Origin: Malacoraja senta
Taxonomy: Eukaryota
Direction: 5' to 3'
Assembly (NCBI GenBank): GCA_038087875.1
Contig: CM075993.1
Span: forward strand, 9,798,001-9,862,000
Length of the DNA stretch: 64,000 nt
How positions within the stretch are numbered: the first letter of the stretch is position 1; each line of letters starts with the position of its first letter. Position numbers and translations under genes: made by a program. Positions 6,743 through 42,275 of this stretch are shown here, piece after piece. The notes beneath the pieces are model-generated. The model was given only the letters and a program-made list of their open reading frames with translations. It ran no database searches and had not been told where the DNA came from.

Positions 6743-6929
6743 TGTTTAAGAAGGAACTGCAGATGCTGGAAAATCGAAGGTAGACAAAAATGCTGGAGAA
6801 ACTCAGTGGGTGAGGCGGCATCTATGGAACGAAGGAAATAGGCAACGTTTTGGGCCGAAACGGGTCTGAAGAAGGGTTTCAAACGTTGCCTATTTCCTTT
6901 GCTCCATAGATGCTGCCTCACCTGCTGAG
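6743..6929. mobile_element. Palindromic short repeat, probably derived from a Penelope terminal repeat, with 14-bp TSD
   Basis: aaggaactgcagatgctgg...ggcaacgttt...ctgaagaagggtttcaaacgttgcc...atagatgctgcctcacc. TTCCTTCACACTGA occurs at 6729-6742 and 6930-6943. Confidence 0.75.
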
Positions 6930-8020
6930 TTCCTTCACACTGACGCTGTGATCAGCATATTTACCTTCTTAGGCGGCCAAGAACATATGAGATTTTCCTG
7001 AACTTCTACAGATGTGCTATTGAAAGTATTCTGATGCTTCTCAATGTGGTATGGCAACTACTCTGCTATTGACCACCTGAACCTGCAGAGAGTGGTGAAC
7101 ACAGCCCAGTCCATCACAGGCTCGTCACTTCCTTCCAGTCCATCTTCATGGTATGTTGCATCAGGAAAGCTGGACATATTGTGATGGTTGCCTGCCACCC
7201 TGGCCAGTCCCTTTTCTCTCTTCGCCCTTCTGGGAGAAGATACAGGAGCCTGAAAGCCCAGATGTCCAGACTTAAGAACAGCTTTTTCCCCACTGCTCTC
7301 AGACTTGTGGACTAATCACCCTCTAATCCAGGCAGCACCCTGGCAAACCTCCTCTGCACCCTCTCCAAAGCCACCACATGTATCCTGTAATGGGGTGACC
7401 AAAACTGCACACAACATTCCAAATGTGGCCTGACCAGAATTTTATACAGCTGCAACATGACTTCCTGACTCTTGTACTCAAACCCCCAACCAATAAATGC
7501 AAGCAGATTATGTACATTTAATTCATATATTAAAAAGCTGTGAAGAAATTTATGAAGACAGATGTTATAGTTAAACCTGGATTAAATACCCTTTCACTGG
7601 AGACCAGGACACTTCCTGTAAAGATGTCTTTCATCCACAAATAGCTGAAGAGAGACCTTCTGGTAATTGCCCAGGGCTTCCTGCCCTCTACACTCCAGCC
7701 CCATGAGATGAAAACCAATCTTCCATTAGGCACTTTGGCTGGTGATGTTTCCGCACTTGCTTTTAGTGGTTGGTGTAGAGGGAGCCAGAACTCCCAGCCT
7801 CACTCTCTTGGTCTTTCTCCATTCACCAATCGTTCCTTTTTGCTCTCTTGGATCTAGAGTGACCTCTCCCCCCTCCCCACATTCTCCAGTAACCTCCACC
7901 GGCCATAGTTTTATCCACTAACTCTAACTGATTGCGTCTCAGAGTTACCTCCCTCCCCTCTTTAGTCCTGCATTCAATTGTGTTGGCCTCTCTGTTCCCA
8001 CATCCCACTGAGTGATACTC

Positions 8021-13255: not shown

Positions 13256-13441
13256 GTTCAAGAAGGAACTGCAGATGCTGGAAAATCGAAGGTAGACAAA
13301 ATTGCTGGAGAAACTCAGCGGGTGAGGCAGCATCTATGGAGCGAAGGAAATAGGCAACGTTTCGGGCCGAAACGTTGCCTGTTTCCTTCGCTCCATAGAT
13401 GCTGCCGCACCCGCTGAGTTTCTCCAGCAATTTTGTCTACC
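13256..13441. mobile_element. Palindromic short repeat, probably derived from a Penelope terminal repeat, with 14-bp TSD (mirror ~57707-57892)
   Basis: Arms fold about the centre ggcaacgtttcgggccgaaacgttgcc (13353-13379). TTCTTGGTTAAACA occurs at 13242-13255 and 13442-13455. Confidence 0.8.
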
Positions 13442-14619
13442 TTCTTGGTTAAACATTTAGCCTGTGTGTTTGATAACATGTAGATAGCATATTACTGAAT
13501 AAGAAGTTAGTTATTGTCCTATAGCATAAGTGTGTATAGGTAGTTTAGATCTGTTAGTTCAGCCTGAAGAAAGGTCTTGACCCGAAACATCACCCATTCC
13601 TTCTCTCCAGAGATGCTGCTTGACCCGCTGAGTTACTCCAGCATTTTGTGTCTATCTTTAGTTTAGATACTACTTTATAAGGCTTGGTTTTATTGGTTGA
13701 GCTCTTATCCTGGTGTTATAGTACCTACATTGTGTTTTAACAGCAAAGTAATAGATTTATCTGGAGTTATTGTGTTTACTGGTCTGTTAAGCTGCAGCAA
13801 GAAAGAATTTCATTATTCCGTTGTCAGTACATTTGATAATTAAACATTCTTAACTTGTGACTCAAAAATTACATTAAAGTAGTCAGTCTGGATCCTGGCA
13901 CCACACCAGATTGATCATCCAGGGCCTTCTTAACCTCTAGTGACCCAGAGTTACTTAGAATGTAGAACAGTGCAGCATAGGAACAGGCCCTGCGGCCCAC
14001 AATATTTGTGCCGAACATGATGCCGTTAAACTGATATCTCCCTACATGATCCATATCCATCCATTCCGTGCACTTCCTTCCATGCCCACCTAAAACCTTT
14101 TAAACGCCACTATCATATCAGCCTCTACAATCACCCCCCGCAATACAGTCCGGGTCCCCACCACTCTGTGTAAAAAGCTTGCCCCACACATCTCCATTAA
14201 ACTTTCCACCTCTCACCTTACTGAAAGCCAACAAGTTATTGGAGACACCAGGTTCAATGGGTCAGGAAGCACCTCTGGAGAAAGTGGATAGGTGACGTCT
14301 TGGGTTGGGACCCATCTTCAGATCCATATTCTCCAGAGATGCTGCCTGACACGCTGAGTTTCTCCAGTATGTTGTGTCTCCCATTGATGAGATGCTTGTG
14401 GCTACACTGCCCTCTGGTGTCCATATTGTTGGCAACGATGGGAGAGAACCAGAGGTTTCCCTCACCAGAGGTATCTACCGGTTCTAATTTCTGATTGAAT
14501 GAGTGTCATGACATGAGTATTAAATGTACAGATTATACTCAGCATAGATGTTAAATCAACTTAATTTATTGGTATTATAAACTGAGAATAAGTTAGATTT
14601 TTGATGTGCCAGAGAACAA

Positions 14620-18001: not shown

Positions 18002-19488
18002 TCTCATAGTAATGTGATATGAAGATGTTGGCCTTGGGACAGTGAGATATCAGGGTGATCAAGGGGTGTGGGGTATGAGGGTGCTGATCTGTGTCAAGGG
18101 TGTTCATGCAACAATTTTAGAATTAATTCCATGTACACGGAAAAGAATCATGAAACCTATTCTGATTATTGATTAAAAGACAACATTTTGGTGTACTCAT
18201 ATGGTGGGTAATATACCAGCCTTGGAAAAGACTCAGAGGAAAGCTACAAGAATGATAAACAGTTTCAAAAAATTTCACTTGGATAACTAGACAAAAAGAC
18301 ATAGGTCACTGAAAGTGATACGTTAATCAATGGCCAACATTGATTGTCACGATATATTGGATGATTTCGATAGACTGATAAGAATAAAGCAACAAAGAAT
18401 TAAACTAAACACCAATAGAACATTATTAGATGTTGGGCTGTTCTTCCTTGCCGTAGTAAAGAATGTCAGGAGTATAATTACGAGCAGTTTCTGGTGTTAT
18501 AGGGTTGGAATTCTTCTCTCTCTATTGGATTGCACAGTAACAATATTACACACATATCCTTCCATGTATCAGCTATTAGCACAATTTTTACAGTTAATAA
18601 ATCCTAGACCCAGTTGTTCAGTTTGCTCCTATCTATATTTAATCTTCCTGATAATAATACAAATTAATAATTTCCTGAAATCTTAGGATTCAGAATACAG
18701 ATTCCTCAATGTACCAGCTATAATTATACTTTAACAAATATTGCTGTTGAACTTGTATTTGCTTTACAACACATTGGTTAATAGCAGAATGTATAACAGA
18801 AGTAAAAACAAGAACAATGTATCTTATTTTAAAGTGGAATATATTTGAAAGTATATTTTGTATTCTCATTCTCATCCAATTATCCCCTGACACCTGACCC
18901 TAAGTGAGCTGAAAACTGAATCAGGTTCCAATGCCCAGTGTAACAATGAAAAGCTTTATGACATTTTTGCACTTACCATCTGAAAAGTCCATTACTAATC
19001 AATTAATTAAATGCGAATAGATATCCATTTAACACACAGATCTCTTTATAGCTATCTTTAAAGATTAGTAGTGTCTTACTGCAAAAGTGAATTTGTCCAC
19101 TTGCATCAGAGTAAAAACTTATGTGAACTGCAAAATAAGGGACGAAACAGCACTCCAGGTCTGATACAATTATGCCATTACTCACTTTGTTCCCATCCCA
19201 GATAGTTTTTGCAGAATTACACTAATGCGCTGGGAGGGCTACATGTAAAGGCATTTAACAAAACAAATGCTTGTATGAGTAGCATTAAACCTTCAAAAGT
19301 TCACTCAATGAAAGATCAGCAAATGTTAATTCTGTAACCTTTTGCTAAATAGCTTAAAATTGCTACAACACATCCCAACTTAAGATCAAAGACTTGAAGA
19401 TGATACAGCATTTTACTCATTCAACATCGGCACAACAAACAAAATCAGAATGAATCGATTTCCTTTTTCTGCATACATGCCACATTTA

Positions 19489-21088
19489 CAGTGCATTCAG
19501 AAAGTATTCAGACGCCTTCACTTTTTCCACATTTTGTTACGTTACAGCCTTATTTTTAAATGGATTAAATTATTTTCTTTTTTATCATCAATCTACACAC
19601 AATACCCCAGAATGAAGAAGCGAAAACAGGTGTTTATAAATTTTTGCAAAGTAATTAAAAATAAATAACTGAAATATCACATTTACATAAGTATTCAGAC
19701 CTTTTGCCAATAAACACTCATTTGAGCTTAGGTTCATCCTGTTTCCATTGATTATCCTTGAGATCTTTCTACAACTTGATTAGAGTTCACCAGTGGTAAA
19801 TTAAATTGATTGGACATGATTTAGAAAGGCACACACCTGTCTATATAAGGTCCCACAGTTGACAGTGCATGTCAGAGCAAAAACCAACCCACGAGGACGA
19901 AGGAATTGTCTGTAGACCCCCGAGACAGGATTGTGTCGTGACACAGATCTGGGGAAGGGTATAAAACAATTTCTGCAGCATTGCAGGCCCCGAAGAGCAC
20001 AGTGGCCTCCGTCATTCTTAAATGGAAGAACTTTGGAACCACCAGGACTCTTCATGGAGCTGGCCGCCCAGCCAAAATGAGCAATTGGGGGAGAAGGGCC
20101 TTGGTCAGGGAGGTGACCAAGAACCCGATGGTCACTCTGACAGAGCTCCAGAGTTCCTCTGTGGAGATGGGAGAATCTTGCAGAAGGCAACTATATCTGC
20201 AGCACTCCATCAATCAAGCCTTTATGGTAGAGTTGCCAGATAGAAGCCACTCCTCAGTAAAAGGCACATGACAGCCCACTTGGAGTTTGCCAAAAGGCAT
20301 GAGTAACAAGATTATCTGGTCTGATGAAACCAAGATTGAACTCTTTGGCCTGAATGCCAAGCATCATGTCTGGAGGAAACCAGGCACCGCTCATCACCTG
20401 GCAAATACCATACCCATGGTGAAGCAGGGTGGTGGCAGCATCATGCTGTGGGCATTTTTCTCAGTGGCAGGAACTGGGAGACTAGTCAGGATCAAGGGAA
20501 TGATGAACGGTGCAAAGTACAGAAAGATCCTTGATGAAAACCTGCTCCAGAGCGTTCTGGACCTCAGACTGGGGCGGAAGTTCACCTTCCAACAGGACAA
20601 CAACCCTAAGGACACAGGCAAGACAACACAGGAGTGGTTTTGTGACAAGTCTGTGAATGTCCTTGAGTGGCCCAGCCAGAGCCTGGACTTGAACCCCCCC
20701 TCTAGAGGGACCTGAAAATAGCTGTGCATCGACGCTCCCCATCCAACTGAGAGAGCTTGAGAGGATCTGCAGAGAAGAATGGGAGAAATTACCCAAATAC
20801 AGGTGTGCCAAGCTTGTAGCGTCATACCCAAGCAGACTTGAGGCTGTAATCGCTGCCGAAGGTGCTCAACAAAGTACTGAGTAAAGGGTCTGAATACTTA
20901 TGTAAATGTGATACTTCAGTTATTTCTTTTTAATTACTTTGCATACATTTCTAAACACCTGTTTTCGCTTTTTTATGATGGGGTATTGTGTGTAGATTGA
21001 TGATAACAAAAATGAATTTAATCCATTTTAGAATAAGGCTGTAAATGTAGAAAAAGTGAAGGGGTCTGAATACTTTCTGAATATACTG
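19489..21088 (+). mobile_element. Tc1/mariner DNA transposon with long IR/DR termini; transposase disrupted
   Basis: TA|CAGTGCATTCAGAAAGTATTCAGAC ... GTCTGAATACTTTCTGAATATACTG|TA, with ~210-bp TIRs carrying inner direct repeats. Transposase motifs [27 protein letters not shown] and [10 protein letters not shown] lie in frameshifted ORFs 19981-20271 and 20287-20715. Confidence 0.95.
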
Positions 21089-21274
21089 TACACTCAGGTT
21101 AACAAAATATCTGAGTATATGTGAAACGAAATTGGTTTCTGGTTCTGTGGACCTCCATGACTGGGGTTTAGTAGTGTCCTACAGTGAGGGTGCATGTAAG
21201 AGCCAAAGTTTTACACAGCAGCAGTAATAAACGCAAAACATTTTTGTGCACTTTATTCCAATGCAATACTGGTT

Positions 21275-21462
21275 TTACCAACGTCTAGTTGCCACTAATT
21301 CTTCCTTTAAACTAATCTTTTCAATGTTTCGTAACCAACCACTAAGGCAAGAGCTGTTGGAGCTGTCGATAAGATGCGAGCGGTGAGCCCCTTGGTGAAG
21401 CCCCACACACCTTCCTCTCTCAGGAGCTGCCTGAAAGTGTCACTTATCGATTTGTCCCCCAC
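21275..21462 (-). CDS. slc25a44: Last coding exon of SLC25A44, arm 1 copy, with an apparent 1-nt deletion near the C-terminus
   Basis: Acceptor ttcag|GTG; reads VGDKSISDTFRQLLREEGVWGFTKGLTARILSTAPTALALVVGYETLK. 188 nt versus 189 nt in the mirror copy (A4 versus A5 run near 21320). Confidence 0.88.
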
Positions 21463-26452: not shown

Positions 26453-27957
26453 CTGAAATGTCGTCTGTCTATTTCCATCCACAGATATCTGACACGCTGA
26501 GTTCCTCCAGCAGTTTATTTCTTGTTGTGGCCACATATCACGATTGTGCAGAGAAAATGCCACCTTCAGCTGGAAGTTAATCTCCGTCCTGCTTAATGGA
26601 AGCTCACACGGGCTTCAATGAGGAGCTGAGAGTCAGCAGGGGCAGCAGAACTGTATTATTATCAGAACCGGCAATCTCATGCCCTGGCATAATCTTACTT
26701 GACCATGACAATCAAGGTTATGGACCAACACAAGTTCAATGAAGTGCAGAAGGGAATGCTGGCAACAGCTCCAGAGGTACCTCAACCTGAGTTGCTAACA
26801 TTGCAGCAACATATGAGGTACACAGCAGAGGGACCATACAATAAACAATATGATAGATTGAACTAAAGAAATAAAAACAGCGACACAAGGAACTGCAGAT
26901 GTTGGTTTACTAAAAAACAGAAAGTGCTCGAGTAGTTCAGCTGGTCAGGTTGCATTTCTGGAGGACATGGATGGGGGATGTTTTGGTCGGTCCCTTCTTC
27001 ATACTGCAAGAAAGGGCAATGTATAGTGCTGATGATGTACTGTGGACTTCCAAACAAACTTCTTTAGTTCAATCTATCATAGAATAGAATAGAATAGAAT
27101 AGAATAGAAACTTTATTTGCCACACGACCAGGGTTGGTGGTAATTGGGTTCGGTACATGATGGTACACTGCTTTAGCACATTAACACTAACAACAATAAT
27201 AATAAAGCACATCACAAATCACAAATCTCACCAACAATACATAGTGCAAAAGAACAGACAAAAACCATAGACAAGACACTGTATACATCAAAGTCAAAAA
27301 GTTATTGGAGGGAATTAAGTGTTCTTATTGCTGAGGGGAAGAAACTGTTTTTAAAACGGGTGGATTTTGTAGCAAGTGACCTAAGGCGCCTCCCTGAAGG
27401 GAGAGACTGGAAAAGGTGGTTTGCTGGATGGGAGGGGTCCTTTATTGCATGGTCCTTCTGCTGTGCAGCTCATATGAGGGAGATAGAAGAAGCAAACCTG
27501 GAGACCAATGTCTGACAAGTTCAAAAACAATGGCATGGTAATATGTGGAGATTTCAATGACTTTAATCTTAACTTGGGTAGAGAATTATTTTATCACATT
27601 CTGGAGCTTTATGTTTTAGTCAATAGTTAGCGTGATCAGCAAAAGGGGAGCGGTGGATTCTGGATTTAGTTTTGGATGATGAAGCTGTGAAGTAAGAAGA
27701 ATGGTGGGGGGGATAAGATTCTCAATTCAGATAGATGGCATTGTCAGTACAAAAAGGCAAAACAAATAGGACTAAAGGTTTGAAATTGGGGGAAGTGAAA
27801 GCCGAGAAGTGAAGTTAGCTTCGGGGATTGGAAACAGCTACTTGAAGGTCAATCAATCTCAGAAAAATTAGAGGCAATCCATTTTGGGTAAACACAAAAA
27901 ATAAGATTGGACTGACAAATTTAGAGTTCCCAGAATGACTAGCTGTATCGAGAGTAA

Positions 27958-28444
27958 AGGGCCTGTCTCACGAGCATGCGACTGCATGCGCGACCAAACC
28001 GGAAGCGGGGGCCGCGCGGAGGTCGAGTGATCCCCGTACAGGGCCTGTCCCACGAGCATGCGACTGCATGCAGCGAGCGCGGCCAAACCGGAAGCGGTGG
28101 GCGCGCGGAGGTCGAGTGAGTGACGTGAAGTTCGCGCAAAGTCAGCGGGAAGTTTGCGCGTGACGTACGGCGTCAAGACGCTGCGTACGGCGTCGAGACG
28201 CTGCACACGCCCGTCGAGGCGGTGCGTACGCCGTCAGGGCGGCTGCGGGCCGGCTGGCCGTTGCCGCGCGGAATTTTTGAACAGTCAGTTTTTCGGAGTC
28301 CCGCGCGATGTCGGGACCAGCTCCGCACAACTTCATACGGCTCCGGCGATCGAAGTGGGACCGGCCCCGCGAGGCCGTACGGCTCAAGCGACCACGTTAG
28401 GTCGCGCTTGCCGCATGCAGTCGCATGCTCGTGGGACAGGCCCT
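27958..28444. mobile_element. PIF/Harbinger-like MITE with duplicated left terminus (mirror 42697-43185)
   Basis: 32-bp TIR AGGGCCTGTCCCACGAGCATGCGACTGCATGC with its reverse complement ending at 28444; TAA and TTA flanks; CpG-rich; second left TIR copy at 28040. Confidence 0.8.
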
Positions 28445-29500
28445 TTAGATAAGACAATGATAATGTGTGAATGATTGTGGACATTTAAATTGATAATAAG
28501 AGAAGAGTCTAAAGACATCCACCAGATTATATACCAGGGAAAACAAAGAACCACAGTCATTGCTGTTGGTTCAGTGTTCCATGTTACTGTGACCCAGTAA
28601 TTTGGGACTGTGAAATGTTACTTGGACATGCTGCTGTTACAGTATGCAGATTGTTTGAAGGAAAAATGTTAAACTAAAAAAAGAGCTAAAATGCTTGCAG
28701 CTCTTTCACTCTTTTAGAGCTCGCAAGTCAGATAAATGTTTAAAGGCATTAAACGTTGAACCTGAAGATAACAATGTATCTGTTTACTCTGCTAACCTTT
28801 TGTTAGCCAACATCCTCTGAAGGCTTGCATCAGTGACATTGCATGTCAAAGGATGACTCTTGCTTATCTCCGCCATGAACTGTTTCTTCAACACAAACAT
28901 GAGCAAGCAGTGCCAACAAGCTAGTCAACCCTGAAGTGTGTTTCAATTAAGTTTGAAATATGATACTGATCCGGAAACAAAATCTCTAATGGGTAATCAA
29001 AATCGACACAATAACCTGTAGCAACTTGCCAAACTTCATCGGCAACTCTTGGCCAACTAAATGACAGAGTAGAGAAATGGAAATGCTATCACCTTCACGT
29101 CCCTCTCAAGTCTCACCTCCCCAATTTGGACAAATTGTTATTCTTTTCCATCGTCACTGGGTAAAAATCCTGGAAGCTCAAACTGGCTGCACTTTACTGT
29201 ATGGGGGACAGTCTAAAGTAGGGTCTCAACCCGATATGTCACCCATCCTTTTTATCCAGAGTTGTTGCCTGACCCGCTCAGTTACTGCAGCACTTTGTCT
29301 TCTATCTTTATAAACCAGTATCTGCAGTCATTTGTTTCTGCAGGGGTTGAAGCCCTTTGTTAACTAACATCTTCTGAAGGCTTGCATTCGTGACATTGCA
29401 GGTTAAAGGATGACACTTGCTTTTCAAAGCCACCTGGAATGCACATTAAATGTTGGCCTTGCTGATGGTATTGGCAAGCTTAGAATGAATGCACCCTCAC

Positions 29501-29628
29501 CTGAACCCTTGTTTTGATCACATCCATTGGGTTGGTGACTGTAGCTGCTGTGATTGCTGCCATTGGTCCAGCTATTCCTTGAATAATCAGATGAGGCCAT
29601 TCACTGGGAGTCCAATTTGAAATTTGCT
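29501..29628 (-). CDS. slc25a44: Penultimate coding exon of mitochondrial carrier SLC25A44 (or a close paralogue)
   Basis: 128-nt exon bounded by tttag| and |gtgagg. It translates to (E)QISNWTPSEWPHLIIQGIAGPMAAITAATVTNPMDVIKTRVQ, with the carrier signature PxDxxKxR and similarity to human SLC25A44 as I recall it (EQLSYLCPKECPHIVFQAVSGPLAAATASILTNPMDVIRTRVQ). It splices in phase 0 to the last exon. Not in the ORF track. Confidence 0.9.
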
Positions 29629-29749: not shown

Positions 29750-30068
29750 GGGTGGCACAGTAATGCAGCCGGTAGAGCTGCTACCTTACAGCGCCAGAGA
29801 CCCAGGTTCAATCCTGACCTCGGATGCTGTATGTGTGGAGTTTGCACGTTCTCCCTGTAACCACGTTAGTTTCCTCCGGGTGTTGTGGTTTCCCCCCACA
29901 TCCCAAGGATGTGTGGGTTGTAGATTAATCGGCCTCTGTAAGTATGTAGGGAATGGGTGCGAAAGTGGGGTAATATAGAACTAGTGTGAACAGGTGATCG
30001 ATGGTCAGCGGGGATTTGGTGGAGTGAAGGGTCTGTTTCCATGCTGTATCGCCAAAATAAAGTAAATA
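29750..30068 (+). mobile_element. V-SINE-type element in an slc25a44 intron
   Basis: tRNA head with GGTTCAATCC B box, V-type domain, tail gggtctgtttccatgctgtatc. Confidence 0.8.
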
Positions 30069-31010
30069 AATGGTTACCAAGTATGACTAACATATGTCCT
30101 TCAATATCTATCTTGTTTGAACAACTAATTCTATAAATGGAAGATTATTTCTTCACCTTTATACACTATTAGAATCCACAGCTAGAGCATATATGATAAT
30201 ACCAGGAGGAAATGCTTTAGGTCCTTGCACCACCATTTGAGACCATTTTTCTTTCCAATTCTCTGAATCTTCAATTTCTTTATAATCCATAATCTCTCTG
30301 TTCTAAATATACTTTATTGATCATCCATGCAACAGAGAATGCCAAAAAATCATAATTCTCCGACAGCAGAAAGTCTTCCTCCTCTGCATTAAATACTAGT
30401 CCCTTATCCTGTTGAGATCTGGTTGATATTGTATTAAAAACAATCTGCCTTGGCTAATGCAAACCCATTCTGAGCCTTTTAAATTTTCTGATACTCAAAC
30501 TGATCAGAAATGAATGTTTATTACTGGGTCCCTGGAATGGACGGATTAGCCTTTGAAGGTAGGACGGAGAGTAGATTTGTATCCACTAGAGTTTAGAAGA
30601 GTGAATAGGGTTAAACATATAACATTCTGAGGAGTCTTGCCAAGGGTGATGTGGAGAGGATGTCTTCTTTTGTGCAATTTCTGTGAATGGCTTGGACCAA
30701 GCTGGAATAGGCATGATGAGGAAGTTTGCAGCTGATACTTCATATTAAGATGTACTGTACTTGGCACAACTTTTGCCTATATGTTTGTCTATAGATTCAT
30801 GGCCTGATAATAATGGTAGTACAAGGGCCATGTTGAGCTATTAAAATTGTAGACAGCAGTGGTGTACAATGTTGTTTACAATCACCAGTTTTGAATCCAT
30901 GCCATTATGCCTATTGGTAATGCTAAGCATGCACAGAATGGAAGGTGAAGAAGGGGCCTGGTCTCTACAAAGGCTGTAAAATGTGCACTCCTACCACTCT
31001 TGCGGGTCTG

Positions 31011-31142
31011 GTCTAGTCTAGTCTAGTCTAGTCTAGTCCGTCCGTCCGTCCGTCCGTCCGTCCGTCCATCCATCCATCCACCCACCCATCCATCCACCCA
31101 CCCATCCACCCATCCATCCATCCATCCACCCATCCATCCATC
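31011..31142 (+). repeat. Compound microsatellite (GTCTA)5-(GTCC)n-(ATCC/ACCC)n
   Basis: Read directly from the sequence. Confidence 0.95.
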
Positions 31143-32793
31143 AAACTCTGTGGCTGCCTGACTTGTGTCCGCCTGACTTCCACCAAATCCCCAAAGACAT
31201 TTATCTTTACGAATAGCCACTCCTGATTAAATCCGGTCCTGTTTATGTACACGTTTTTAATAAAATCCACCCCCCCAACCCCCACTCGATTTTCTCCGAT
31301 TTTCTCCGAAAACGACGCCATCTTTTTTTTGCCGATTTTCTCAGAAAACGACGCCATCTTTTTTCGCCGATTTTCTCCGATTTTTTCCGAAAACGACGCC
31401 ATCTTTTTTTAGCCGATTTTCACCCCGTGGTCTGAAGCACCTTCGGGAACAACACCCCGGGGTGTGAAGCACTTTCGGGGACCAGACCCAACGGGTCTGC
31501 ACTTGGTCTAGTAATATATTAAAACTCTGTGGCTGCCATCCGTCCGGCGGTCCGGCCGCCTGACTTGTGCCACCAAGCCCCTACGCCCACACCGCACGCG
31601 GAAACGCAGATATTTTTTTCAATTACTAAAGAGATTTCATTTATCTTTACGAATAGCCACTCCTGATTAAATTTGGTCGTGTTTATGTACACTTTTTAAA
31701 AATAAAATACTTCTCCCTCCCCCCAACATTTCAAAATGTTAAAAAACTAGCTCTCAGCAATAGAATGTTAATGAAGGTTCCGTTGTGTGATGTCACAATG
31801 CCCAATGCTCACAGATGTCCAATGGGAATGGATCCATTTACATATGCCTTTGCAGCAGCCCCAGCACCAGCCCCTCCCCCCACCCCCGCAGCTGTGTCGA
31901 AGGGCGTTGTCACGTATGTGGGAATAGAGAAAGAGGATTTTGGGTGATAGGGAATGGGGAACAGATGGACTGTCCCTACCCCTCCTACTTCCACTCTCCC
32001 TCCCCACTCTTCCCCCTCCCTCTCCTCCCACACCCTCTCTTCCCCCTCCACCACCCCTCTTCACCCCCATCTCCCCCCATCCCCTTCCCCTCTCTCTTGC
32101 ACCACTCCCCTCTACCCCTCTGCCCCTCACTCCCCACTCTTCCCCTCTCCCTCCCCCACCTCTCTCCCTCCACCCTCCCTCTCTCCCTCCTACTCCTCTC
32201 CCCTTCCCCTCATCCCCTCTCTCCACCTCTAACATCCCCTCCCCCCTCTCCCCCCTTCCTGCCCTCCCCGCTCTCCTCCCACTCCCCACTCCTCCCACTC
32301 CTCCCCCACCCTCCTCCCCCTCCTCCCCCACCCTGCTCTCTTCTCCCTCACCAATCTCTCCCCTTTCCTCCTCCCCCTCTCCCCCTCTCCTCTTCTCTCC
32401 CCACCCCGTCTCCCTCTCCCCTCTTCTCTCCCCACCCCGTCTTCCTCTCCCCCTCCCCCCGCCTGTGTTTGGGGGGTGGTTAGTGTGAGTGTGATGCCGC
32501 AGCCCACCCCCCCCCTCCCACAAACGCGCTTTGGGAAAACAGCCCGCCAACAGTCTCTCTGTCTTTAAGACGGAACTGCTGGAAAATCGAAGGTACATAA
32601 AAAAATACTGTAAAACCTCAGCGGGTGCAGGAGCTTCTATGGATCAAAGGAAATAAGCAACTTTTCAGGACAAAACCCATCTGAGGATGGGTTTCGGGCA
32701 AAAGAGTTGCATATTTCCTTCGCTCCATAGATGCTGCTGCACCCGCTGTGTTTCTCCAGCTTTTTTTTGTGTGCCAGTCTCTCTGTCTCTCAC

Positions 32794-32830
<37 letters not shown>

Positions 32831-33994
32831 CTTCTCTCTTCACAGCCCGCGGATCGACTCATGCACGCCCGCTCCAACCCCCCCTTCACCTCTCTCCCCC
32901 ATGGTCTCCTTCCTCACTCCACCCCTCTCCTCTCTCCCCCTCCTCTCTCCCCACCTTCCTCTCCCCCCTTCCTCTCCACCCTCCTCCTCCCCATCACAAT
33001 TTTTTATTTAATAACATTAAATTTTCTCTCTCTGCCCCCCCCCCTCGAGACGCACCTGAGAGGCGAGGGCTATTCGTCAGTGGATAGGGTGAAGATGGGA
33101 TAAAAGAAGAAAATTAAAAAATTAAGATAATATCAAGGGGTGTGATGAGTGTGTGTGTTTGTGGGTGCCAGATTCCCACCCCGCAACCGTGCTTTGGAGG
33201 AAAGGGGGTGGTTAGTGTGACGCCACAGCCCCCCCCCCCCGCCCGCAAACGCACGTTCAGTGTCCAGACCCAACGGGTCTGCACTTGGTCTAGTAATATA
33301 TTAAAACTCTGTGGCTGTCATCCGGCCGGCGGTCCGGCGGTTCGCCTGACTTGTGCCACCCTGCCCCTTTGATACTGCCCAACACCCACACCGCACGCGG
33401 AAACGTCGATATTTTTTACAATTTCTAAAGAGATTTCATTTTTCTTCACGAATAGCCGCTCCTGATTAAATTTGGTCGTGTTTATGTACACTTTTTAAAA
33501 TAAAATACTTCTCCCGCCCCCCCCCCCCCCACAACATTTCAAAATGTTTAAAAAAACAGCTCTCAGCCATAGAATGTTAGTGAAGTTTCCATTGTGTGAT
33601 GTCACAATGCCCGATGCTCACACATGTCCAATTGGAATGGATCCATTTACATATGCCTTTGCAGCAGCCCCAGCCCCAGCCCCTCTCACCCAACCCCACA
33701 GCCTGTGTCGAAGGGCGTCGTCACGTGTGTGGGGGTGATAGGGAATGGGGAAATTTCAAAATGTTTAAAAAACAGCTCTCAGCAATAGAATGTTAATGAA
33801 GGTTCCGTTGTGTGATGTCACAATGCCCAATGCTCACAGATGTCCAATCGGAATGGATCCATTTACATATGCCTTTGCAACAGCCCCAGCCCCTCCCCTC
33901 CACACCCGCAGCCTGTGTCGAAGGGCGTCGTCACGTGTGTGGAAATAGAGAAAGAGGATTGGGGGTGATAGGGAATGGGGAACAGATGGACTGT

Positions 33995-36060
33995 CCCTAC
34001 CCCTCCCCCTTCCACTCTCCCTCCCCACAATTTCCCCTCTCTCCCCCCCACCGCTCTCCCCCTCCCTCCACATTCTTGCCCCTCACTCCCCTAACCCATC
34101 TCCCTCCTCCCCTCCACCCTCCCCCACACCTCTCTACCCCTCCCCTCGCCTCTCCCACCCCTCTCTCCTCCCCCTCTGCATCACCCTCTCCTCAACCCTC
34201 TGCCTCTCCTCCCCCTCCTCCTCCCACCCCCATCATTCTCTCCCCCATCCCCCTTCCCTCTCTACCCCACCCCCTTCCCTCTCTCCCCCCGTCCCCTTCC
34301 CCCTACCCCGCTGTCCCTCTTCCACCACTCCCCCTACCCCTCTCCCCCTCCCTTTCTCCCACTTCACCACTCCCCCTACACCTCTCCCCCTCCCTCCCCA
34401 TTCTTCCACGTCTCCCAAACCCATCCCCACCCCCTCCCCCACCCCTCTCCCCTCCCTTCCCTCTCCCTCCCCTCTCTTCCCCCTCTCTCCCCCCACCCCT
34501 CTCCCCCTACCCTCAACACTCTTCCCCATCTCCCTCCCCCACCCCTCTCTCTCCACCCTCCGCTCTCGCTCCACACTCTTCCGCCTCCCTCCCCTACCCC
34601 CACCCCTATCCCTCTCTCCCCCACCCCCCTACCCCATCTCCTCTCCTCCTTCACACCTCTCTTCCCTCCCCATCACTCTCCCACACCTCTCTCTCCATCC
34701 CCATCCCTCTCTCCCCCTCCCCATCCCTCCCCCTCTCCATCTCCCTCTCCTCAGCATCTCCCTCTCCTCCCCCTCCTCCCACCCCCATCCCTCTCTCCCT
34801 CACCCCTTCCCTCCCCCACCCCTTCCCTCTCTCCCCCACCCCCTTCCCCCTCACCACTCTTCCCCCTCCATCCACACTCTTCCCCCTCTACCCACTACCC
34901 CATCTCCCTCCTCGCCTCCCACCACCCTCCCCCACACGTCTCTACCCCTCCCCTCACCTCCCCCACCCCTGTCCTCCCCCTCTCCATCCCCCTCTCCTCA
35001 CCCCTCTCCCTCTCCTCCCCCTCCTCCTCCCACCCCCATCACTCTCTCCCCCATCCCCCTTCCCTCTCTCCCCGTCCTCTCCCCCTACCCCGCTGTCCCT
35101 CTTCCACCACTCCCCCTACCCCTCTCCCCCTCCCTCTCTCCCACTTGCACCACTCCCCCTACACCTCTCCCCCTCCCTCCCCATTCTTCCACTTATCTCC
35201 CAAACCCATCTCCCTCCCCCACCCCTCTCCCCATCCCTCTCCCTCCCCACTCTTCCCCCTTTCCCCCTCTCTCCCCCCCACCCCTCTCCCCTACCCTCAA
35301 CAATCTTCCCCATCGCCCTCCCCACCCCTCTCTCCCCCCCTCCCTTTCCTCTCGCTCCACTCTCTTCCCCCTCCCTCCCCTACCCCACCCCTATCACTCT
35401 CTCCCCCACCCCCTTCCCTATCCCCCACCCCCTACCCCACCTCCTTCACACCTCTCTCCCCTCCCCATCACTCTCTCCTCCCCTCCCCACCCCTCTCTCC
35501 TCCCCCTCTCCCTCTCCTCCCCTCCTCCTCCCACCCCATCCCTTTCTCCCCCACCCTCCCACCCCACTCTTCCCCCTCCCTCCACTCTTCCCCCTCTCTC
35601 CCCTACCACATCTCCCTCCTCCCCTCCCTCCACCCTCCCCCACCCTTCTTCACCCCCATCTCCACCCCATCCCCTTCCCCGTTCTCTTGCACCATTCCCT
35701 GCTACCCCTCTCCCCCTCCCTCTCCACTCTTCGTCTCTCCCTCCCCCCTCCCTCTCTCCCCCTCTCTTCCACCTACTCCTCTCTCCCCTTCCCCTCATCC
35801 CCTCTCTCCACCTCTAACAACCCCCCCCCTCTCTCACCCCCCTACCACTCTCCCCCTTCCTGCCCTCCCTGCTCTCCTCCCACTCCACACTCTCCTCCCC
35901 CTCCCTCTCCCCCACCCTGCTCTCCTCTCCCTCCCCAATCTCTCCCCTCCCTCCCCCTCCCTCCCCTCCCCTCTTCTCTCCCCACCCCATCTCCCTCTCC
36001 CCCCCTCCCCTCCCCTCTTCTCTCCCCCCCTCCCTTCCCTCCCCTCTGTCCCCCCACCCC
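33995..36060 (+). repeat. Long homopyrimidine (C/T-rich) low-complexity tract; others at ~31972-32460, 39485-41050 and 41990-42075
   Basis: Almost G-free, C-dominated sequence built from degenerate CCCCTCT/CCCCACT motifs. Confidence 0.95.
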
Positions 36061-37135
36061 TTGGATGGGGGAGGGGGGAGGGAGGAGATTAGGGAGATGG
36101 GGTAGGGGAGGGAGTAGGAAGAGTGTGGAGGGAGGGGGAAGAGTGTGGTGGAAGAAAGAGGAGAGACCCAAGATAAAATAACTGAATATGTCGAGGATCA
36201 ACGAGAAAGAACACAAAACATGGAGCAAGAGACACAACAAAAATGAACATAACTGAATACATTTTATCATTACAATTTAAATTGTTGTATTTTAAGTTAT
36301 TTACATTTTAAGATTTAATAAATCACTTTTCCACTTGCAGCGCCTGTCAGCCGCTATCTCTGCTCTCTCACTCTTTGATCTTTATCTTTTTCTCTGCACT
36401 CTCTCTCTTCCACTGTCTGTGCACACTCTCTCTGCCCCCCAACCCCCCTCGAGACGCACCTGAGAGGTGAGGGCTATTCGTCAGTGGATAGGGTGGAGAT
36501 GAGATAAAAGAAGCCAATTTATAAAATTAAGATAATATCAAGGGGTGTGATGAGTGTGTGTGTTTGTGGGTGCAAGATTCCAACCCCGCAACCGTGCTTT
36601 GGAGGAACAGACGCCGCAGCCCCCCCCCCACCCCGCAAACGTGCGTTGGAGAGACACTTGCACTTGGTCTAGTAATATATTAAAACTCTGTGGCTGCCGT
36701 CCGCATGCCGTCCGTCCGCCTGACTTGTGCCACCCAGCTCCTTTGACACCGCCCTACGCCCACACCGCACGCAGATACGCCGATATTTTTTTCCATTTCA
36801 AAAGAGATTTCATTTTTCTTTTAAATTTCAGAATTTCATTTAAATAAAATACTTCCCCCCCCCCCCCCCAAAATTTCAAAATGTTAAACAAACAGCTCTC
36901 AGCCATAGAATGTTAATGAAGGTTCCGTTGTGTGATGTCACAATGCCCAATGCTCACAGATGTCCAATCGGAATGGATCCATTTACATATGCCTTTGCAG
37001 CAGCCCCAGCCCCAGCCCCTCCCCCCCACCCGCAGCCTGTGTCGAAGCGCGTCGTCACGTGTGTGGTAATAGAGAAAGATAATTGGGGGTGATAGTGAAT
37101 GGGGAACAGATGGACTGTCCCTACCCCTCCCCCCA

Positions 37136-38631
37136 CCAAATTTCTTATTTTATTTTTGGGCAGTCCATATGAAAAACATGAATTTCTGGCTGGAAGAAAT
37201 GGATCAATATCCAGATTGGTTAAGGATGGAAAAGGAAGACTGTTCACCTTTTGAAATTGGTTCGATTATATTTGCTCCCACAAAATTGCATAAAAAAACC
37301 AATAAGGAAAACCCTATAATACATAGTGGAATACGAATTTGGAAACAATTAAAGAAAGCTTTGAAACTGAATAATATACCACTATGTCTTCCCATTGTAA
37401 ATAATCCTTTATTCAAGCCATCCATATTGGATAGAGGTTTTATACAATGGAAAAATTATGGAATTAAAAAGATTGGACATCTTTATAGGGAAGGCGTGTT
37501 TTTGTCATTTCAAGAGTTACAACAGAATCATGGACTGCACTCAAATATTTTTTTTAGATATCTACAAATTAGGGATTATGTTAAATCTAATACACAAGTA
37601 TATAGGACTAGGGAACCAGAAATTCTTGATGAATGTTTGAATAAGCATCCTAACACTGAAAAATTAATAGCTTATATTTATAACACCCTCTTAAACAATG
37701 AGGTACCACCGATGGAATTATATAGACACACATGGGAAAATGAGTTAGGTCATTCTATAACGAAAGACATTTGGGACGAAAGTTTACAACATATACATCA
37801 ATGCTCGTTAAATGCCAGACATGCTTTAATACAATTTAAAGTCTTACACAGATTACATTATTCCAAAGTAAAACTAAATAGAATCTTCCCACATATTTCT
37901 TCTATCTGTGATAAATGTTTACATCTAGAGGCCAATTTAACACATACTTTTGCCAATTGTATAAAAATTAAAAACTTCTGGATTGATATTTTTGAAATAA
38001 TTTCTTAAGTTGTTAATACAAAATTGGATCCATACTCAAAATTAATAATACTTGGGATATCAGAACAAAGTTTAACACTCACAACAAACCAAAGAAACTT
38101 CCTTGACTACAGTATAATAACAGGGAAAAAATTAATATTAAAATTTTGGAAAGGTCCTATAACCCCCACAATTAAAATGTGGATTGTGGAAATGTCGGAG
38201 ACCCTACATCTAGAAAGAATTAGACTTGTCTTAATGGACAAACAAGAACTTTTTGTTAAAATATGGGCTCCATTCATTAACTATTTGAAGGGATAGATGG
38301 GCCAAGCACGAAAACCCAACTGAAGCTTGAACAGGATTAGATGTAAAAATATATTTCATAACCTACGAACTTATCTCCAAAGACGTATTATAAGTAGTTC
38401 ATTCCACCTTTCTTTTTTCTTTTTTTCTCATGATATTTGTAATGCTTTTTTCTTTCTATCTTTCTTTTTCTATCTATATTTTAAAAAACCACTAGAAGCA
38501 GAATTAATCGACAATTGACAATTTTAATAATGTATGATTGATGTATATGAAAAGTTTTTATTTCTATTATAATATGTTACCATACCTTATAATATGTTTG
38601 CTTCTAATAAAAATATTAATCCCAAAAAAAA
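37136..38631 (+). mobile_element. 5'-truncated L1-clade LINE (ORF2 C-terminal region, 3' UTR, A-rich tail)
   Basis: PNFLFYFWA start; FKVLHRLH; zinc-knuckle-like CDKC...HTFANC; LERIR..WAPF C-terminus. One in-frame TAA at 38006-38008 and the stop at 38296. AATAAA at 38606-38611, then an A-run. Strongly AT-rich against its flanks. Confidence 0.9.
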
Positions 38632-41600
38632 CAATTTAAATTGTTGTATTTTAAGTTATTTACATTTTAAGATTTAATAAATCACTTTTCCACTTGCAGC
38701 GCCTGTCAGCCGCTATCTCTCTGCTCTCTCACTCTTTGATCTTTATCTTTTTCTCTGCACTCTCTCTCTCACTTCCACTCTGTCTGTGCACACTCTCTCT
38801 GCCCCCCCACCTCCATCGAGACGCACCTGAGAGGTGAGGGCTATTCGTCAGTAGATAGGGTGGAGATGGGATAAAAGAAGCAAATTACAATATTAAGATA
38901 ATATCAAGGGGTGTGATGAGTGTGTGCGTTTGTGGGTGCCAGATTCACACCCCGCAACCGTGCTTTGTAGGAACAGACCCAACGGATGGGTGGTTAGTGT
39001 GACGCCACAGCCCCGCCCCCCCGCAAATGCACGTTGGGGATACAGACCCAACACGTCTGCACTTGGTCTAGTCTATATTTAAAACTCTGTGTGTGTATGC
39101 GTGTCTGCTTGACTTGTGCCAGCCAGCCCCTTTGATACCGCGCTACGCCAACACCGCACGCAGAAACGCCGAGATTTTTTCCATTTCGGTAGAGATTTCA
39201 CTTTTCTTTACCAATAGCCGCTCCTGATTAAATTTCGTCGTGTTTATGTACACGTTTTAAAAAAACAGCTCTCAGCCATAGAATGTTAGTGAAGGTTCCA
39301 TCGTATGACATCACAATGCCCAATGCTCACAGATGTCCAATCGAAATGGATCCATTTACATATGCCTTTGCAGCAGCCCCAGCCCCAGCCCCTCCCCCGC
39401 AGCCTGTGTCAAAGAGCGTCATCACGTGTGTGGGAATAGAGAAAGAGGATTGGGGGTGATAGGGAATGGGGAACAGATGGACTGTCCCTACCCCTCCCCC
39501 TTCCACTCTCCCTCCCCACTATTTCCCCTCTCCCCCCACCCCTCTCCCCCTCCCTCCACACTCTTCCCCTTCCCCTAACCCATCTCCCTCCGGCCCTCCT
39601 TCCCCCATCCCTCCCCCCTCCCCCACTCCTCTCTCTCCCTCCCCATCCCTCTCTCCCCCTCCCCCATCCCTCTCTCCTCCCCCTCTCCATCTCCCTCTCC
39701 TCACCATCTCCCTCTCCTCACCATCTCCCTCTCCTCCTCCCACCACCATCCCTCTCCCCCACCCCCTTTCCCCTCTCCCCTTCCCTCCCACACCACCTTC
39801 CCTCTCTCCCCAAACCCCTTCCCTCCCCCACCCCCTTCCCTCCCCCACCCCCTTCCCTTCCCTCTCCCCCCAACCCCTTCCCCATCCCCCTTCCCACACC
39901 ACCCCCTTCCCTCTCTCCCCAACGCCCCTTCCCTCCCCCACCTCCCTCTCTCCCCCACCCCCTTCCCCCTCCCCACTCTTCCCCCTCTATCCACACTCTT
40001 CACACACTACCCCCTACCCCATCTCCCTCCTCGCTTCCCTCCCCCTCTCCCCCACCCCTCTCTCCTTCCCCCCCCTCCATCTCCCTCTCCCTCTCCTCAC
40101 CCCTCTCCCTCTCCTTCCCCTCCTCCTCCCACCCCATCCCTCTCTCGCCCACCCCCTTCCCTCTCTACTCCACCCCTTCCCTCTCTCCCCCGCCCCCTTT
40201 CCCCCGCCCCCTTCCCCCTACCCCTCTGTCCCTCTTCCACCATACCCCCTCCCCCTCCCTCCCTCCCCACTCTCCCACTTCTCTCCCCTTACCACACACC
40301 TCTCCCTCCCCCACCCCTCTCTCTCCCCCTCCCTTCCCCCTCCCTCCCCCACCCCTTCCCCTACCCCTCTGTCCCTCTTCCACCACTCCCCCTGTCCCTC
40401 TTCCACCACTCCCCCTACCCCTCTCCCCTCCATCCCTCCCCACTCTTCCACTTCTCACCCCCTGCCCCCTCCCACTCTCCCTCCCCACTCTTTCCACTCT
40501 CTCCGCTCTCCCCCTCCCTCCACACTCTTCCCCCTCTCTCCTCACCCCTCTCCCTCCTCCCCTCCCACCCCCTCTCTTCCCCCTCCCCCACTCCTCTTCA
40601 CCCCCATCTCCCCCCCACCCCCTTCCCCTCTCTCTTGCACCACTCCCCGCTACCCCTCTCCCCCTCACTCCCCACTCTTCCCCTCTCCATCCCCCACCTC
40701 TCCCCCTCCCCCCTCCCTCTCCCCCCACCCTCTCTCTCCCCCTCTCTTCCTACTCCTCTCTCCCCTTCCCCTCATCCCCTCTCTCCACCTCTAACATCCC
40801 CTCCCCCCACTCCCAGCCCCCTACCCCTCACCCCCCTTCCTGCCCTCCCCGCTCTCCTCCCACTCCCCACTCTCCTCCTCCCTCTGTCTCCCCCACCCTG
40901 CTCTCCCTCCCCAATCTCTCCCCTTTCCTCCTCCCCCTCTCCCCTCCCTCCCCCTCTCCCCTCCCGCCCCTCTTCTCTCCCCACCACGTCTCCATCTCCC
41001 CCCCTCCCCTCTTCTCTCCCCACCCCGTTTCCCTCGCCCCCCCCTCCCCCCGCCTGTGTGTTTGGGGGGTGGTTAGTGTGAGTGTGATGCCGCAGCCCCC
41101 CCACCCCGCAAACGCGCGTTGGGGAAACAGCCCGCCAACAGTCTCTCTGTCTTTAAGAAGGAACTGCAGATGCTGGAAAATCGAAGGTACACAAAAAAAA
41201 GCTGGAGAACCTCAGCGGGTGCAGCAGCATCTATGGATCGAAGGAAATAGGCAACGTTTCGGGCCAAAACCCGTCTGAAGATGGGTTTCGGACCAAAGCG
41301 TTGCCTATTTCCTTCGCTCCATAGATGCTGCTGCACCCGCGGCTCAACATGCACGCCCGCTCCAATCCCCCCCTTCAGCTCTCTCCCCCATCCTCTCCTT
41401 CCTCTCTCCACCCCCTCCTCTCTCCCCCTCCTCTCTCCCCCTCCTCTCTCCCCCTCCTCTCCAACCCTTCCTCTCCCCCCTTCCTCTACACCCTCCTCCT
41501 CCCCCTCCTCCTTTTTTTCTAACATTAAATTTTCTCTCTCTGCTCCCCCCCTCTAGACGCACCTGAGAGGTGAGGGCTATTCGTCAGTGGATAGGGTGGA

Positions 41601-42075
41601 GATGGGATAAAAGCCAATTAATAAAATTAAGATAATATCAAGAGGTGTGATGAGTGTGTGTGTTTGTGGGTGCCAGATTCCCACCCCGCAACCGTGCTTT
41701 GGAGGAACAGACACAACGGGTGGTTAGTGTGATGCCGCAGCCCCCCCCCCCCGCTAATGCGCGTTGGGGAAATAGACCCAACGGGTCTGCACTTGGTCTG
41801 GTCTATATTTAAAACTCTGTGTGTGGTGGCTGGCTGCCGCCTGCTTGACTTGAGCCAGCCAGCCCCTTTGATACCGCGCTACGCCAACACCGCACGCAGA
41901 AACGCCGAGATTTTTTTGAATTTCGGTAGAGATTTCATTTTTCTTTACGAATAGCCACTCCAGATTAAATTTCGTCGTGTTTATGTACTCTCTCCACCAC
42001 CACCTTCCCTCCCCCACCCCCTTCCCTCTCTCCCCACCCCCTTCCCTCTCTCCCCCTCCCCACTCTTCCCCCTCC

Positions 42076-42275
42076 NNNNNNNNNNNNNNNNNNNNNNNNN
42101 NNNNNNNNNNNNNNNNNNNNNNNNNNNNNNNNNNNNNNNNNNNNNNNNNNNNNNNNNNNNNNNNNNNNNNNNNNNNNNNNNNNNNNNNNNNNNNNNNNNN
42201 NNNNNNNNNNNNNNNNNNNNNNNNNNNNNNNNNNNNNNNNNNNNNNNNNNNNNNNNNNNNNNNNNNNNNNNNNNN
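42076..42275. other. Assembly gap (200 N)
   Basis: Run of exactly 200 N, typical of a fixed-size scaffolding gap. Confidence 0.99.

What the first reader, a model, noticed from the sequence alone, without database searches (positions are those of the whole stretch)
31143..42075. Macrosatellite-like head-to-tail array of Helitron-type elements upstream of the penultimate slc25a44 exon
Seen: six adjacent units (about 0.4, 1.8, 3.4, 2.4 and 2.7 kb, plus one cut by the gap). A perfect 7-bp hairpin CAGACCC-AAC-GGGTCTG (31483-31499, 33265-33281; variants near 39043 and 41773) lies 12 nt before the end of a terminal CTAG or CTGG. The next unit starts immediately, and at 39071/39072 and 41801/41802 the junction is literally CTRR|TC. 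No TSDs and no RepHel ORF. Known: 5'-TC, a 3' hairpin plus CTRR, and no TSD define Helitrons, and rolling-circle replication can give tandem concatemers. Inference: a non-autonomous Helitron family is forming a satellite-like array inside an intron. I am not aware of a description in this lineage, but cannot check.
Basis: partly seen in the sequence, partly recalled or inferred. Interest (0 to 1): 0.75.

Follow-up and report, generated by a model that had tools for sequence, protein, structure and literature searches.

The report
Chain of mixed Helitron copies
At least six related pieces of jumping DNA, likely Helitrons, sit end to end beside an exon of a mitochondrial carrier gene; they are of different types and likely piled up by landing one in front of another, which is a known and fairly ordinary arrangement rather than a new satellite.

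Summary
The array is real. There are six same-strand units (369, 1782, 3379, 2399, 2730 bp, one cut by a gap) with five gapless CTRG|T junctions. The hairpin-plus-CTAG end is a very abundant repeat in three sequencing runs and runs into diverse flanks, so these are likely non-autonomous Helitron1 elements.

It is not a macrosatellite. Only 2 of 5 junctions read CTRR|TC, and 3 of 5 ends keep the hairpin. The 5' ends fall into two types about 20% apart, U1 is a third type, and internal insertions cross these types. The best reading is repeated insertion of different family members directly in front of an existing 5' end, perhaps with some rolling-circle dimers. Consecutive insertion was already proposed for a maize pair (PMC2267711), and Helitron1 families are already listed for skates and rays (PMC11417382 supplement). 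The scan noted a similar dimer before in another genome (e1-9183853).

DNA beyond the gap is an inverted 99.8% copy of the left flank, likely a haplotig, so array size and intron position are unproven. Empty sites and the autonomous partner were not shown.

The parts
31006..31142 (+). Compound microsatellite (GTCTA x6.6, then GTCC/ATCC x26) that hides the left boundary of the array; no A|TC junction visible
   Evidence: masked by the tool
31143..31511 (+). U1: short element of a third type with 36/45-bp internal repeats, perfect hairpin 31483-31499 and CTAG end; start uncertain
   Evidence: its interior (31300-31399) is deeply covered in X17 and has no cover in X1, X6, X8
31512..33293 (+). U2: head type A (starts TA), core module, CT-rich tract, nested palindromic repeat, tail module, perfect hairpin 33265-33281, CTAG
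32551..32788 (.). Palindromic interspersed repeat nested in U2, flanked by a 14-bp duplication (32551-32564 / 32775-32788); relatives are dispersed in the window (6744-6937, 13256-13444)
   Evidence: family name not established (Penelope-like by recall only); no Rfam match at gathering score
33294..36672 (+). U3: head type A, internally duplicated core (33536-33732 / 33753-33942), about 2.1-kb CT-rich tract, module shared with U4 (36272-36612), hairpin deleted, CTAG
36673..39071 (+). U4: head type A, LINE fragment in place of the CT-rich tract, module shared with U3, degraded hairpin 39043-39059, CTAG
37140..38630 (+). 3' fragment of a non-LTR retrotransposon ORF2 (zf-RVT-like C-terminus, one in-frame stop, A-rich tail) inside U4; no target duplication seen; L1 clade by recall
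   Evidence: ORFs; ESM Atlas top hits are zf-RVT clusters, score 0.98, recognition value below the tool's threshold; no Pfam hit; junctions
39072..41801 (+). U5: head type B (starts TC), core, CT-rich tract, the same nested palindromic repeat as U2 (41153-41340) with its right part deleted at a 5-bp microhomology, 6-bp hairpin, CTGG
41802..42075 (+). U6: head type B, jumps to the CT-rich tract after about 190 bp, cut by the assembly gap
42076..42275 (.). 200-N assembly gap; beyond it lies an inverted copy of 7148-28867
29501..29628 (-).
   Evidence: PF00153, E 1.1e-06
21307..21462 (-). Coding part of the last exon of the same gene, in phase with the exon above; mirrored on the + strand beyond the gap
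   Evidence: (PF00153, E 4.2e-09)

Best explanation
The region is a head-to-tail chain of at least six related elements of three or more types, likely non-autonomous Helitron1 transposons, which likely grew by repeated insertion of new copies directly in front of an existing copy's 5' end. Shown: the units, their ends, their mixed make-up, and the dispersal of the same 3' end. Inferred: a RepHel transposase encoded elsewhere joins an incoming CTRR-3' end to a T in AT-rich DNA. The 5' end of a resident copy (host A, then T and about 12 AT-rich bases) is such a site, so insertion there gives a gapless CTRR|T junction without a duplication, and it can repeat. Neighbours with the same head (U3-U4, U5-U6) may instead be rolling-circle dimers. 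Nested retro-type inserts and CT-rich tracts changed unit lengths before or after arrival. No host function is indicated.
For: (1) Ends: five exact CTRG|T junctions, none elsewhere in the window; hairpins in U1, U2, U5; no terminal inverted repeat longer than 7 bp. (2) Dispersal: summed contig depth over the hairpin/CTAG is about 2.0e6 in X17, 1.7-1.8e6 in X8 and 1.8e5 in X1, against 8-54 in the uniquely covered flank bins. It falls to 4%, 8% and 1% at 33306-33317, so most 3' ends are not followed by this head. Contigs that leave into long, dissimilar flanks (agreement 0.36-0.40, median 255 nt) behind 33305/33306 number 102 of 538 partly laid (X17), 100 of 350 (X8) and 71 of 311 (X1). (3) Mixed templates: heads split into U2-U4 and U5-U6 at 14 of 89 non-CpG columns, 19-21% between and 3-7% within, while cores and tails differ only 3.5-7.4%. 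U1 differs 26-38% from the others in the aligned head. The palindromic insert is shared by U2 (head A) and U5 (head B), and the other module by U3 and U4. All four tail-type x head-type pairings occur across the four junctions U2-U6, but only three within elements, as expected if the element, not the junction, is the inherited unit. (4) Loose letters after CTAG that were not aligned to the stretch still give a consensus like the family's own 5' end in three groups (X1 33295 n=18, X1 33296 n=22, X8 33296 n=26); simulated chance is 0.001-0.017 each. (5) Literature: consecutive insertion for a dissimilar head-to-tail maize pair (PMC2267711, passages); Helraiser prefers AT-rich DNA, most strongly on the side flanking the 3' end (PMC4778049, section 10).
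Against: Cores and tails are star-like at 3.5-7.4%, close to the 3.2-5.0% divergence between this species' flank and three relatives, so these modules alone fit identical copies decaying in place. Same-head units are adjacent (A A A B B), as dimers or trimers would be, though a sorted order has chance 2 in 10. The pile-up at 33305/33306 can come from how contigs are picked up: 143, 77 and 17 are expected at 70% AT with up to 2 mismatches, against 102, 100 and 71 seen (the copy numbers used are rough). The three consensus groups were picked after the fact from 18 shown of 280 loose-end rows, and one has median length only 29. Three heads begin TA, not TC. The host A before solo 5' ends, empty sites and an autonomous partner with these ends were not shown. 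0 of 24 listed contig pieces bridge the junction by 31 or more letters on both sides (5 of 24 cross it by 10 or more).
Confidence: 0.65

Rival explanations
1. One reading: one rolling-circle event, or later unequal exchange, made a concatemer of one Helitron, which then diverged in place and is on its way to a satellite.
For: Gapless CTRR|TC junctions are the known signature of Helitron circles and tandem arrays (PMC4778049, PMC5876387, passages). Cores and tails are uniformly 3.5-7.4% apart, and same-head units are adjacent. Arrays of 2-7 copies with 121-1,996-nt monomers are reported in Xenopus laevis (PMC12001565, passages).
Against: Two head types about 20% apart sit on tails about 5% apart, and U1 is a third type. 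Inserts shared by non-adjacent units cross the head types. The best inter-unit BLAST blocks longer than 100 bp reach only 94%. It may hold for the sub-blocks U3-U4 or U5-U6.
Confidence: 0.2
2. A small tandem array was later remodelled by ectopic recombination or gene conversion with dispersed family members, which swapped heads and internal modules.
For: U2 and U5 share an insert but not the head. The family is abundant enough to supply donors.
Against: The head switch falls exactly at the CTAG|T junction in both U5 and U6, and U1 is a whole different type. Several independent conversions ending at element borders would be needed.
Confidence: 0.1
3. The units are not Helitrons, or the chain is an assembly product at a contig end.
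For: The array abuts a gap that is followed by a likely misplaced haplotig. Three heads lack TC. No contig shown spans a whole unit.
Against: The units differ from each other far more than sequencing error and carry coherent shared features. Junction-crossing contigs occur in three runs (tables 2, 5c, 8). Hairpin + CTRR + T with diverse flanks is the Helitron1 definition (PMC11417382, passages).
Confidence: 0.05

Closest known systems
Non-autonomous Helitron1 / HLE1 (definition in PMC11417382; Helibat/Helraiser in PMC4778049)
   Same: 3' hairpin about 12 nt before CTRR, followed by T; no duplication at junctions; no TIR; AT-rich 5' end (TC in U5, U6); captured internal sequence.
   Different: Heads of U2-U4 start TA. 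U3 lacks the hairpin. No autonomous partner identified here.
Batoid HLE1 families (Helitron-1_AmRa, Helitron-2_AmRa; 11,154 HLE1 copies in Leucoraja erinacea, 4,818 in Mobula birostris, 1,651 in Hypanus sabinus; PMC11417382 Tables S1, S10)
   Same: Same class, in the lineage I infer for this window. The lineage is recalled from its SINE and palindromic repeats, not shown by a call.
   Different: Their terminal sequences were not in the text I could search (0 hits for the hairpin core), so identity with these families is untested.
Adjacent dissimilar maize Helitrons explained by consecutive insertion (PMC2267711)
   Same: CTAG followed directly by the next element's start; the neighbours are different elements.
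   Different: A pair in maize, against a chain of six or more here with three or more types in a vertebrate.
Helitron tandem arrays from rolling-circle replication (bats and plants as cited in PMC5876387 and PMC2267711; Xenopus laevis in PMC12001565)
   Same: Precise head-to-tail junctions; 2-7 units of up to about 2 kb.
   Different: Those are repeats of one monomer; here the monomers are of mixed type.
Macrosatellites / Helitron-derived satellite DNA (e.g. oyster and Drosophila papers seen only as search listings)
   Same: Kilobase units in tandem.
   Different: Few units, 9-fold length range, no homogenisation. The standard definition is from my own knowledge.

Membership tests
Helitron1 (HLE1), non-autonomous | 3' short hairpin followed by CTRR | tested here: met
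   CTRR in 5 of 5 ends; hairpin in 3 of 5 (U1, U2, U5), degraded in U4, deleted in U3
Helitron1 (HLE1), non-autonomous | 5' TC dinucleotide | tested here: inconclusive
   TC in 2 of 5 starts that follow a junction, TA in 3 of 5; U1 start hidden. 5' ends of solo copies not seen
Helitron1 (HLE1), non-autonomous | Insertion between host A and T, no TSD | tested here: inconclusive
   T follows CTRR in 5 of 5 and no duplication is visible at junctions. The host A and an empty site were not seen; one search masked 30999-31148
Helitron1 (HLE1), non-autonomous | Dispersed copies with sharp 3' boundary and unrelated flanks | tested here: met
   tables 2 and 7, three runs
Helitron1 (HLE1), non-autonomous | Autonomous RepHel element with the same ends | not testable with these tools
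   No genome held. HLE1 RepHel entries exist for a skate, but their ends could not be compared
Helitron2 / Helentron (HLE2) | Short terminal inverted repeats, insertion in TT, no CTRR end | tested here: not met
   Longest exact inverted match between first 80 and last 120 nt is 7 bp or less in U2-U5; ends are CTRR
Macrosatellite | Many near-identical kilobase monomers in one homogenised array | tested here: not met
   369-3379 bp units; heads 3-21% apart, U1 further; best long blocks 94%. Array length beyond the gap unknown
Single rolling-circle concatemer | All monomers derived from one template | tested here: not met
   Two head clades plus U1; inserts cross the clades. Still possible for U3-U4 or U5-U6

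The most novel reading that the evidence does not exclude
This Helitron family homes on a sequence that mimics its own 5' end, so resident copies act as preferred landing pads and mixed chains grow leftwards across the genome. A few percent of all 3' ends would sit in such chains (4%, 8% and 1% by summed depth in three species), and the order of units would record the order in which subfamilies were active. The leftmost unit U1 belongs to a type seen only in X17, as that would predict.
Probability: 0.35. Interest if true: 0.5.

Novelty: new member of a known kind. Interest (0 to 1): 0.25.

Why it matters
As it stands, this is one more locus of an abundant Helitron1-type family in a lineage where such elements are already catalogued, with no sign of host function. 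Its modest value is as a test case for an old question: do head-to-tail Helitrons come from rolling-circle concatemers or from consecutive insertions? A family this abundant, in several related species, would let that be counted genome-wide. If self-targeting holds, CTRR|TC junctions could not be read as proof of concatemers, and chains would give an insertion chronology.

Tried and rejected
- Own-genome search: no genome is held, so solo copies could not be extracted.
- The 3' terminal pattern found 0 matches in viral contigs and 0 in metagenome contigs.
- Empty-site test in relatives failed. The tool skipped 30999-31148 as a repeat, and the flank contigs of X17, X1, X6 and X8 end 36, 78, 60 and 38 letters past 30998. 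A SINE at about 29770-30050 filled the loose-end table.
They are used only as a hint.
- The loose-end pile-up at 33305/33306 was first read as a target motif, then set aside because chance pick-up can give it.
- Rfam: 0 of 46 matches reach a gathering score; all are hairpin or low-complexity noise. A scan for a hammerhead core (motif recalled) printed nothing.
- Pfam found nothing in the four array ORFs tested.
- The Helraiser cryo-EM paper (Kosek 2021), which I recall as likening target sites to the left end, is not held. A follow-up search found no such statement in the listings, so that point is recall only.
- Searches for a description of Helitrons or their arrays in cartilaginous fishes (listings only) showed no dedicated paper. 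The little skate genome paper has 0 occurrences of 'Helitron' in its main text (supplements not read). Repbase and Dfam could not be searched.
- The scan's earlier notes gave nothing by sequence or in this genome.
- One search used a mis-specified pattern and was repeated correctly.
- A left-edge 14-mer at about 31003-31017 resembles a shortened 3' end, but the DNA upstream is single-copy in four runs; left unresolved.
Full report
Observation. A 12-nt end motif occurs at five places, all on the + strand and all inside 31.5-41.8 kb. It defines units of 369 (start uncertain), 1782, 3379, 2399, 2730 and 274 bp, the last cut by a 200-N gap. The 30-nt junction pattern matches five times in the window and never in 100 shuffles. 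Perfect 7-bp hairpins lie 12 nt before the end of U1 and U2. U5 has a 6-bp stem, U4's is degraded and U3's is deleted. Two junctions read CTRR|TC and three read CTAG|TA. U1 has no visible start: it emerges from a compound microsatellite at 31006-31142. No terminal inverted repeat longer than 7 bp exists in U2-U5. No ORF in the array looked like RepHel (low-complexity ORFs filtered out; four array ORFs scanned).

Anatomy. U2-U5 share a head (about 180 bp), a core (about 230 bp), a CT-rich middle of variable size and a tail (about 280 bp). Heads fall into two types, U2-U4 and U5-U6, separated by 14 diagnostic columns of 89 non-CpG columns (19-21% between, 3-7% within). Cores and tails are star-like at 3.5-7.4%. 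U1 shares only part of the head and the last 45 or so bases. U2 and U5 carry the same nested palindromic repeat at the same site. It has a 14-bp duplication in U2, and its right part is deleted at a 5-bp microhomology in U5. Relatives of that repeat lie elsewhere in the window. U3 and U4 lack it and share another module (36272-36612 / 38631-38978, 93.7%). In U4 a 1.5-kb 3' fragment of a non-LTR retrotransposon, with an A-rich tail, stands where the CT-rich tract would be. Its nearest Atlas clusters are zf-RVT at 0.98, with a recognition value below the tool's threshold.

Setting. The array is 5' of the internal exon and antisense to the gene. Right of the gap, 42276-64000 is an inverted copy of 7148-28867 with 16 mismatches and 21 gap openings in 21.7 kb. 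That looks like a second haplotype or a false duplication joined at the gap. The array's right end, its size and the upstream exon are therefore not seen, and 'intronic' is an inference.

Related sequence. No genome is held, and two collection scans were empty. Of 17 runs listed, I laid four on the left boundary and three on the U2/U3 junction. X17 matches the flank with 0 differences in 1,630 bp and may be the window's own source, so it is not independent. X1, X6 and X8 differ by 3.2%, 4.6% and 5.0% (from table 8). Summed depth over the hairpin and CTAG is about 2.0e6, 1.7-1.8e6 and 1.8e5 in X17, X8 and X1, against tens in unique flank; the tool warns this is no copy number, but the gap is four to five orders of magnitude. 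Depth drops to 4%, 8% and 1% at 33306-33317. Contigs that pass CTAG and leave into long, mutually unlike flanks number 102 of 538, 100 of 350 and 71 of 311 partly laid contigs at the two main positions. Junction-crossing pieces occur in all three runs (5 of 24 listed cross by 10 or more letters on each side, 0 of 24 by 31). One contig each in X8 and X1 joins a junction and a head directly to the tail, which suggests a short derivative in tandem elsewhere (table 5c). The host A before solo 5' ends and an empty site were not seen.

Mechanism. Established (PMC4778049: passages and section 10; PMC5876387: passages): Helitron1 elements end in hairpin + CTRR, insert between A and T without duplication, form circles with precise head-to-tail junctions, and prefer AT-rich DNA most strongly on the side flanking their 3' end. 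Shown here: the chain is made of at least three template types, and internal inserts cross the head types. Across the four junctions U2-U6 all four tail-by-head pairings occur, while within elements only three do. Inferred: new copies inserted at the A|T formed by host DNA and a resident copy's first base, repeatedly. Weak extra support: loose letters after CTAG in three contig groups give a consensus like the family's own start (chance 0.001-0.017 each, chosen after the fact from 18 of 280 rows shown). Against: cores and tails alone fit decay in place; same-head units are adjacent, so U3-U4 and U5-U6 may be rolling-circle dimers; and the main loose-end pile-up can arise from pick-up bias. I put serial insertion, with or without some dimers, at 0.65, a single concatemer at 0.2, conversion-remodelled tandem at 0.1 and artefact or non-Helitron at 0.05. 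That the units are Helitron1-type I put at about 0.9.

Comparison with what is known. The HLE1 definition is in PMC11417382 (passages). Its supplement (searched rows of Tables S1, S3, S10) lists two HLE1 RepHel entries from Amblyraja radiata and 11,154, 4,818 and 1,651 HLE1 copies in three batoids. That the window is from this lineage is my inference from recalled repeats. Dissimilar head-to-tail Helitrons were attributed to consecutive insertion in maize (PMC2267711, passages), where bat tandem junctions are also cited. Xenopus laevis has 43 Helitron-derived arrays of 2-7 units, four of them from a Helitron1 family (PMC12001565, passages). PMC13286980 (passages) confirms AT targets in wheat. 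PMC10115646 (passages) does not mention Helitrons in its main text; its supplements were not read and may. Searches (listings only) showed no paper on such arrays in cartilaginous fishes; subscription journals, Repbase and Dfam were out of reach. An earlier AI note of this scan (e1-9183853) reports a head-to-tail Helitron-like dimer in another skate genome; I did not check it.

Verdict. The feature is real and the Helitron reading is likely right, but it is a mixed chain, not a macrosatellite, and both the element class and the arrangement are known. New member of a known kind; interest 0.25. The boldest reading left open is self-targeting that builds ordered mixed chains genome-wide (probability 0.35, interest 0.5 if true).

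Noticed in passing
window 7148-28867 and 42276-64000: A 21.7-kb inverted copy at 99.8% identity (16 mismatches, 21 gap openings) on the far side of the gap. It duplicates the gene's last exon; likely a misplaced haplotig, though a recent inverted duplication is not excluded.
   Followed up: partly
window 6744-6937, 13256-13444, 32565-32774, 41153-41340: A palindromic interspersed repeat with 10-14-bp flanking duplications at three of these sites; Penelope-like by recall, not tested; no Rfam family at gathering score.
   Followed up: partly
window 37140-38630: LINE 3' fragment with a 311-codon open stretch that replaces, rather than interrupts, the CT-rich middle of U4.
   Followed up: partly
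window 31003-31038: A (GTCTA)n microsatellite that repeats the CTAG|T junction letters, preceded by a 14-mer like a shortened element end; it may have grown from a junction. Flank contigs of all four runs break 36-78 letters past 30998.
   Followed up: partly
window 28796-28868 and 29353-29425: A 73-bp local direct duplication (86%); the mirrored contig beyond the gap begins at the end of the first copy.
   Followed up: no
window 27954-28443: GC-rich element with terminal inverted repeats and 20-bp internal tandem repeats, MITE-like.
   Followed up: no
window 19487-21090: Tc1-like transposon remnant with about 220-bp inverted ends and a broken transposase frame (named by recall; no Pfam hit at E 0.01 for 20272-20712).
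   Followed up: no
window 592-1914 (-): Broken LINE with a reverse transcriptase domain (PF00078, E 5.4e-13), CR1-like by recall.
   Followed up: no
window 30453-30628, run X1 record 7: One relative's contig skips about 176 bp of the unique flank, an insertion or deletion between species.
   Followed up: no
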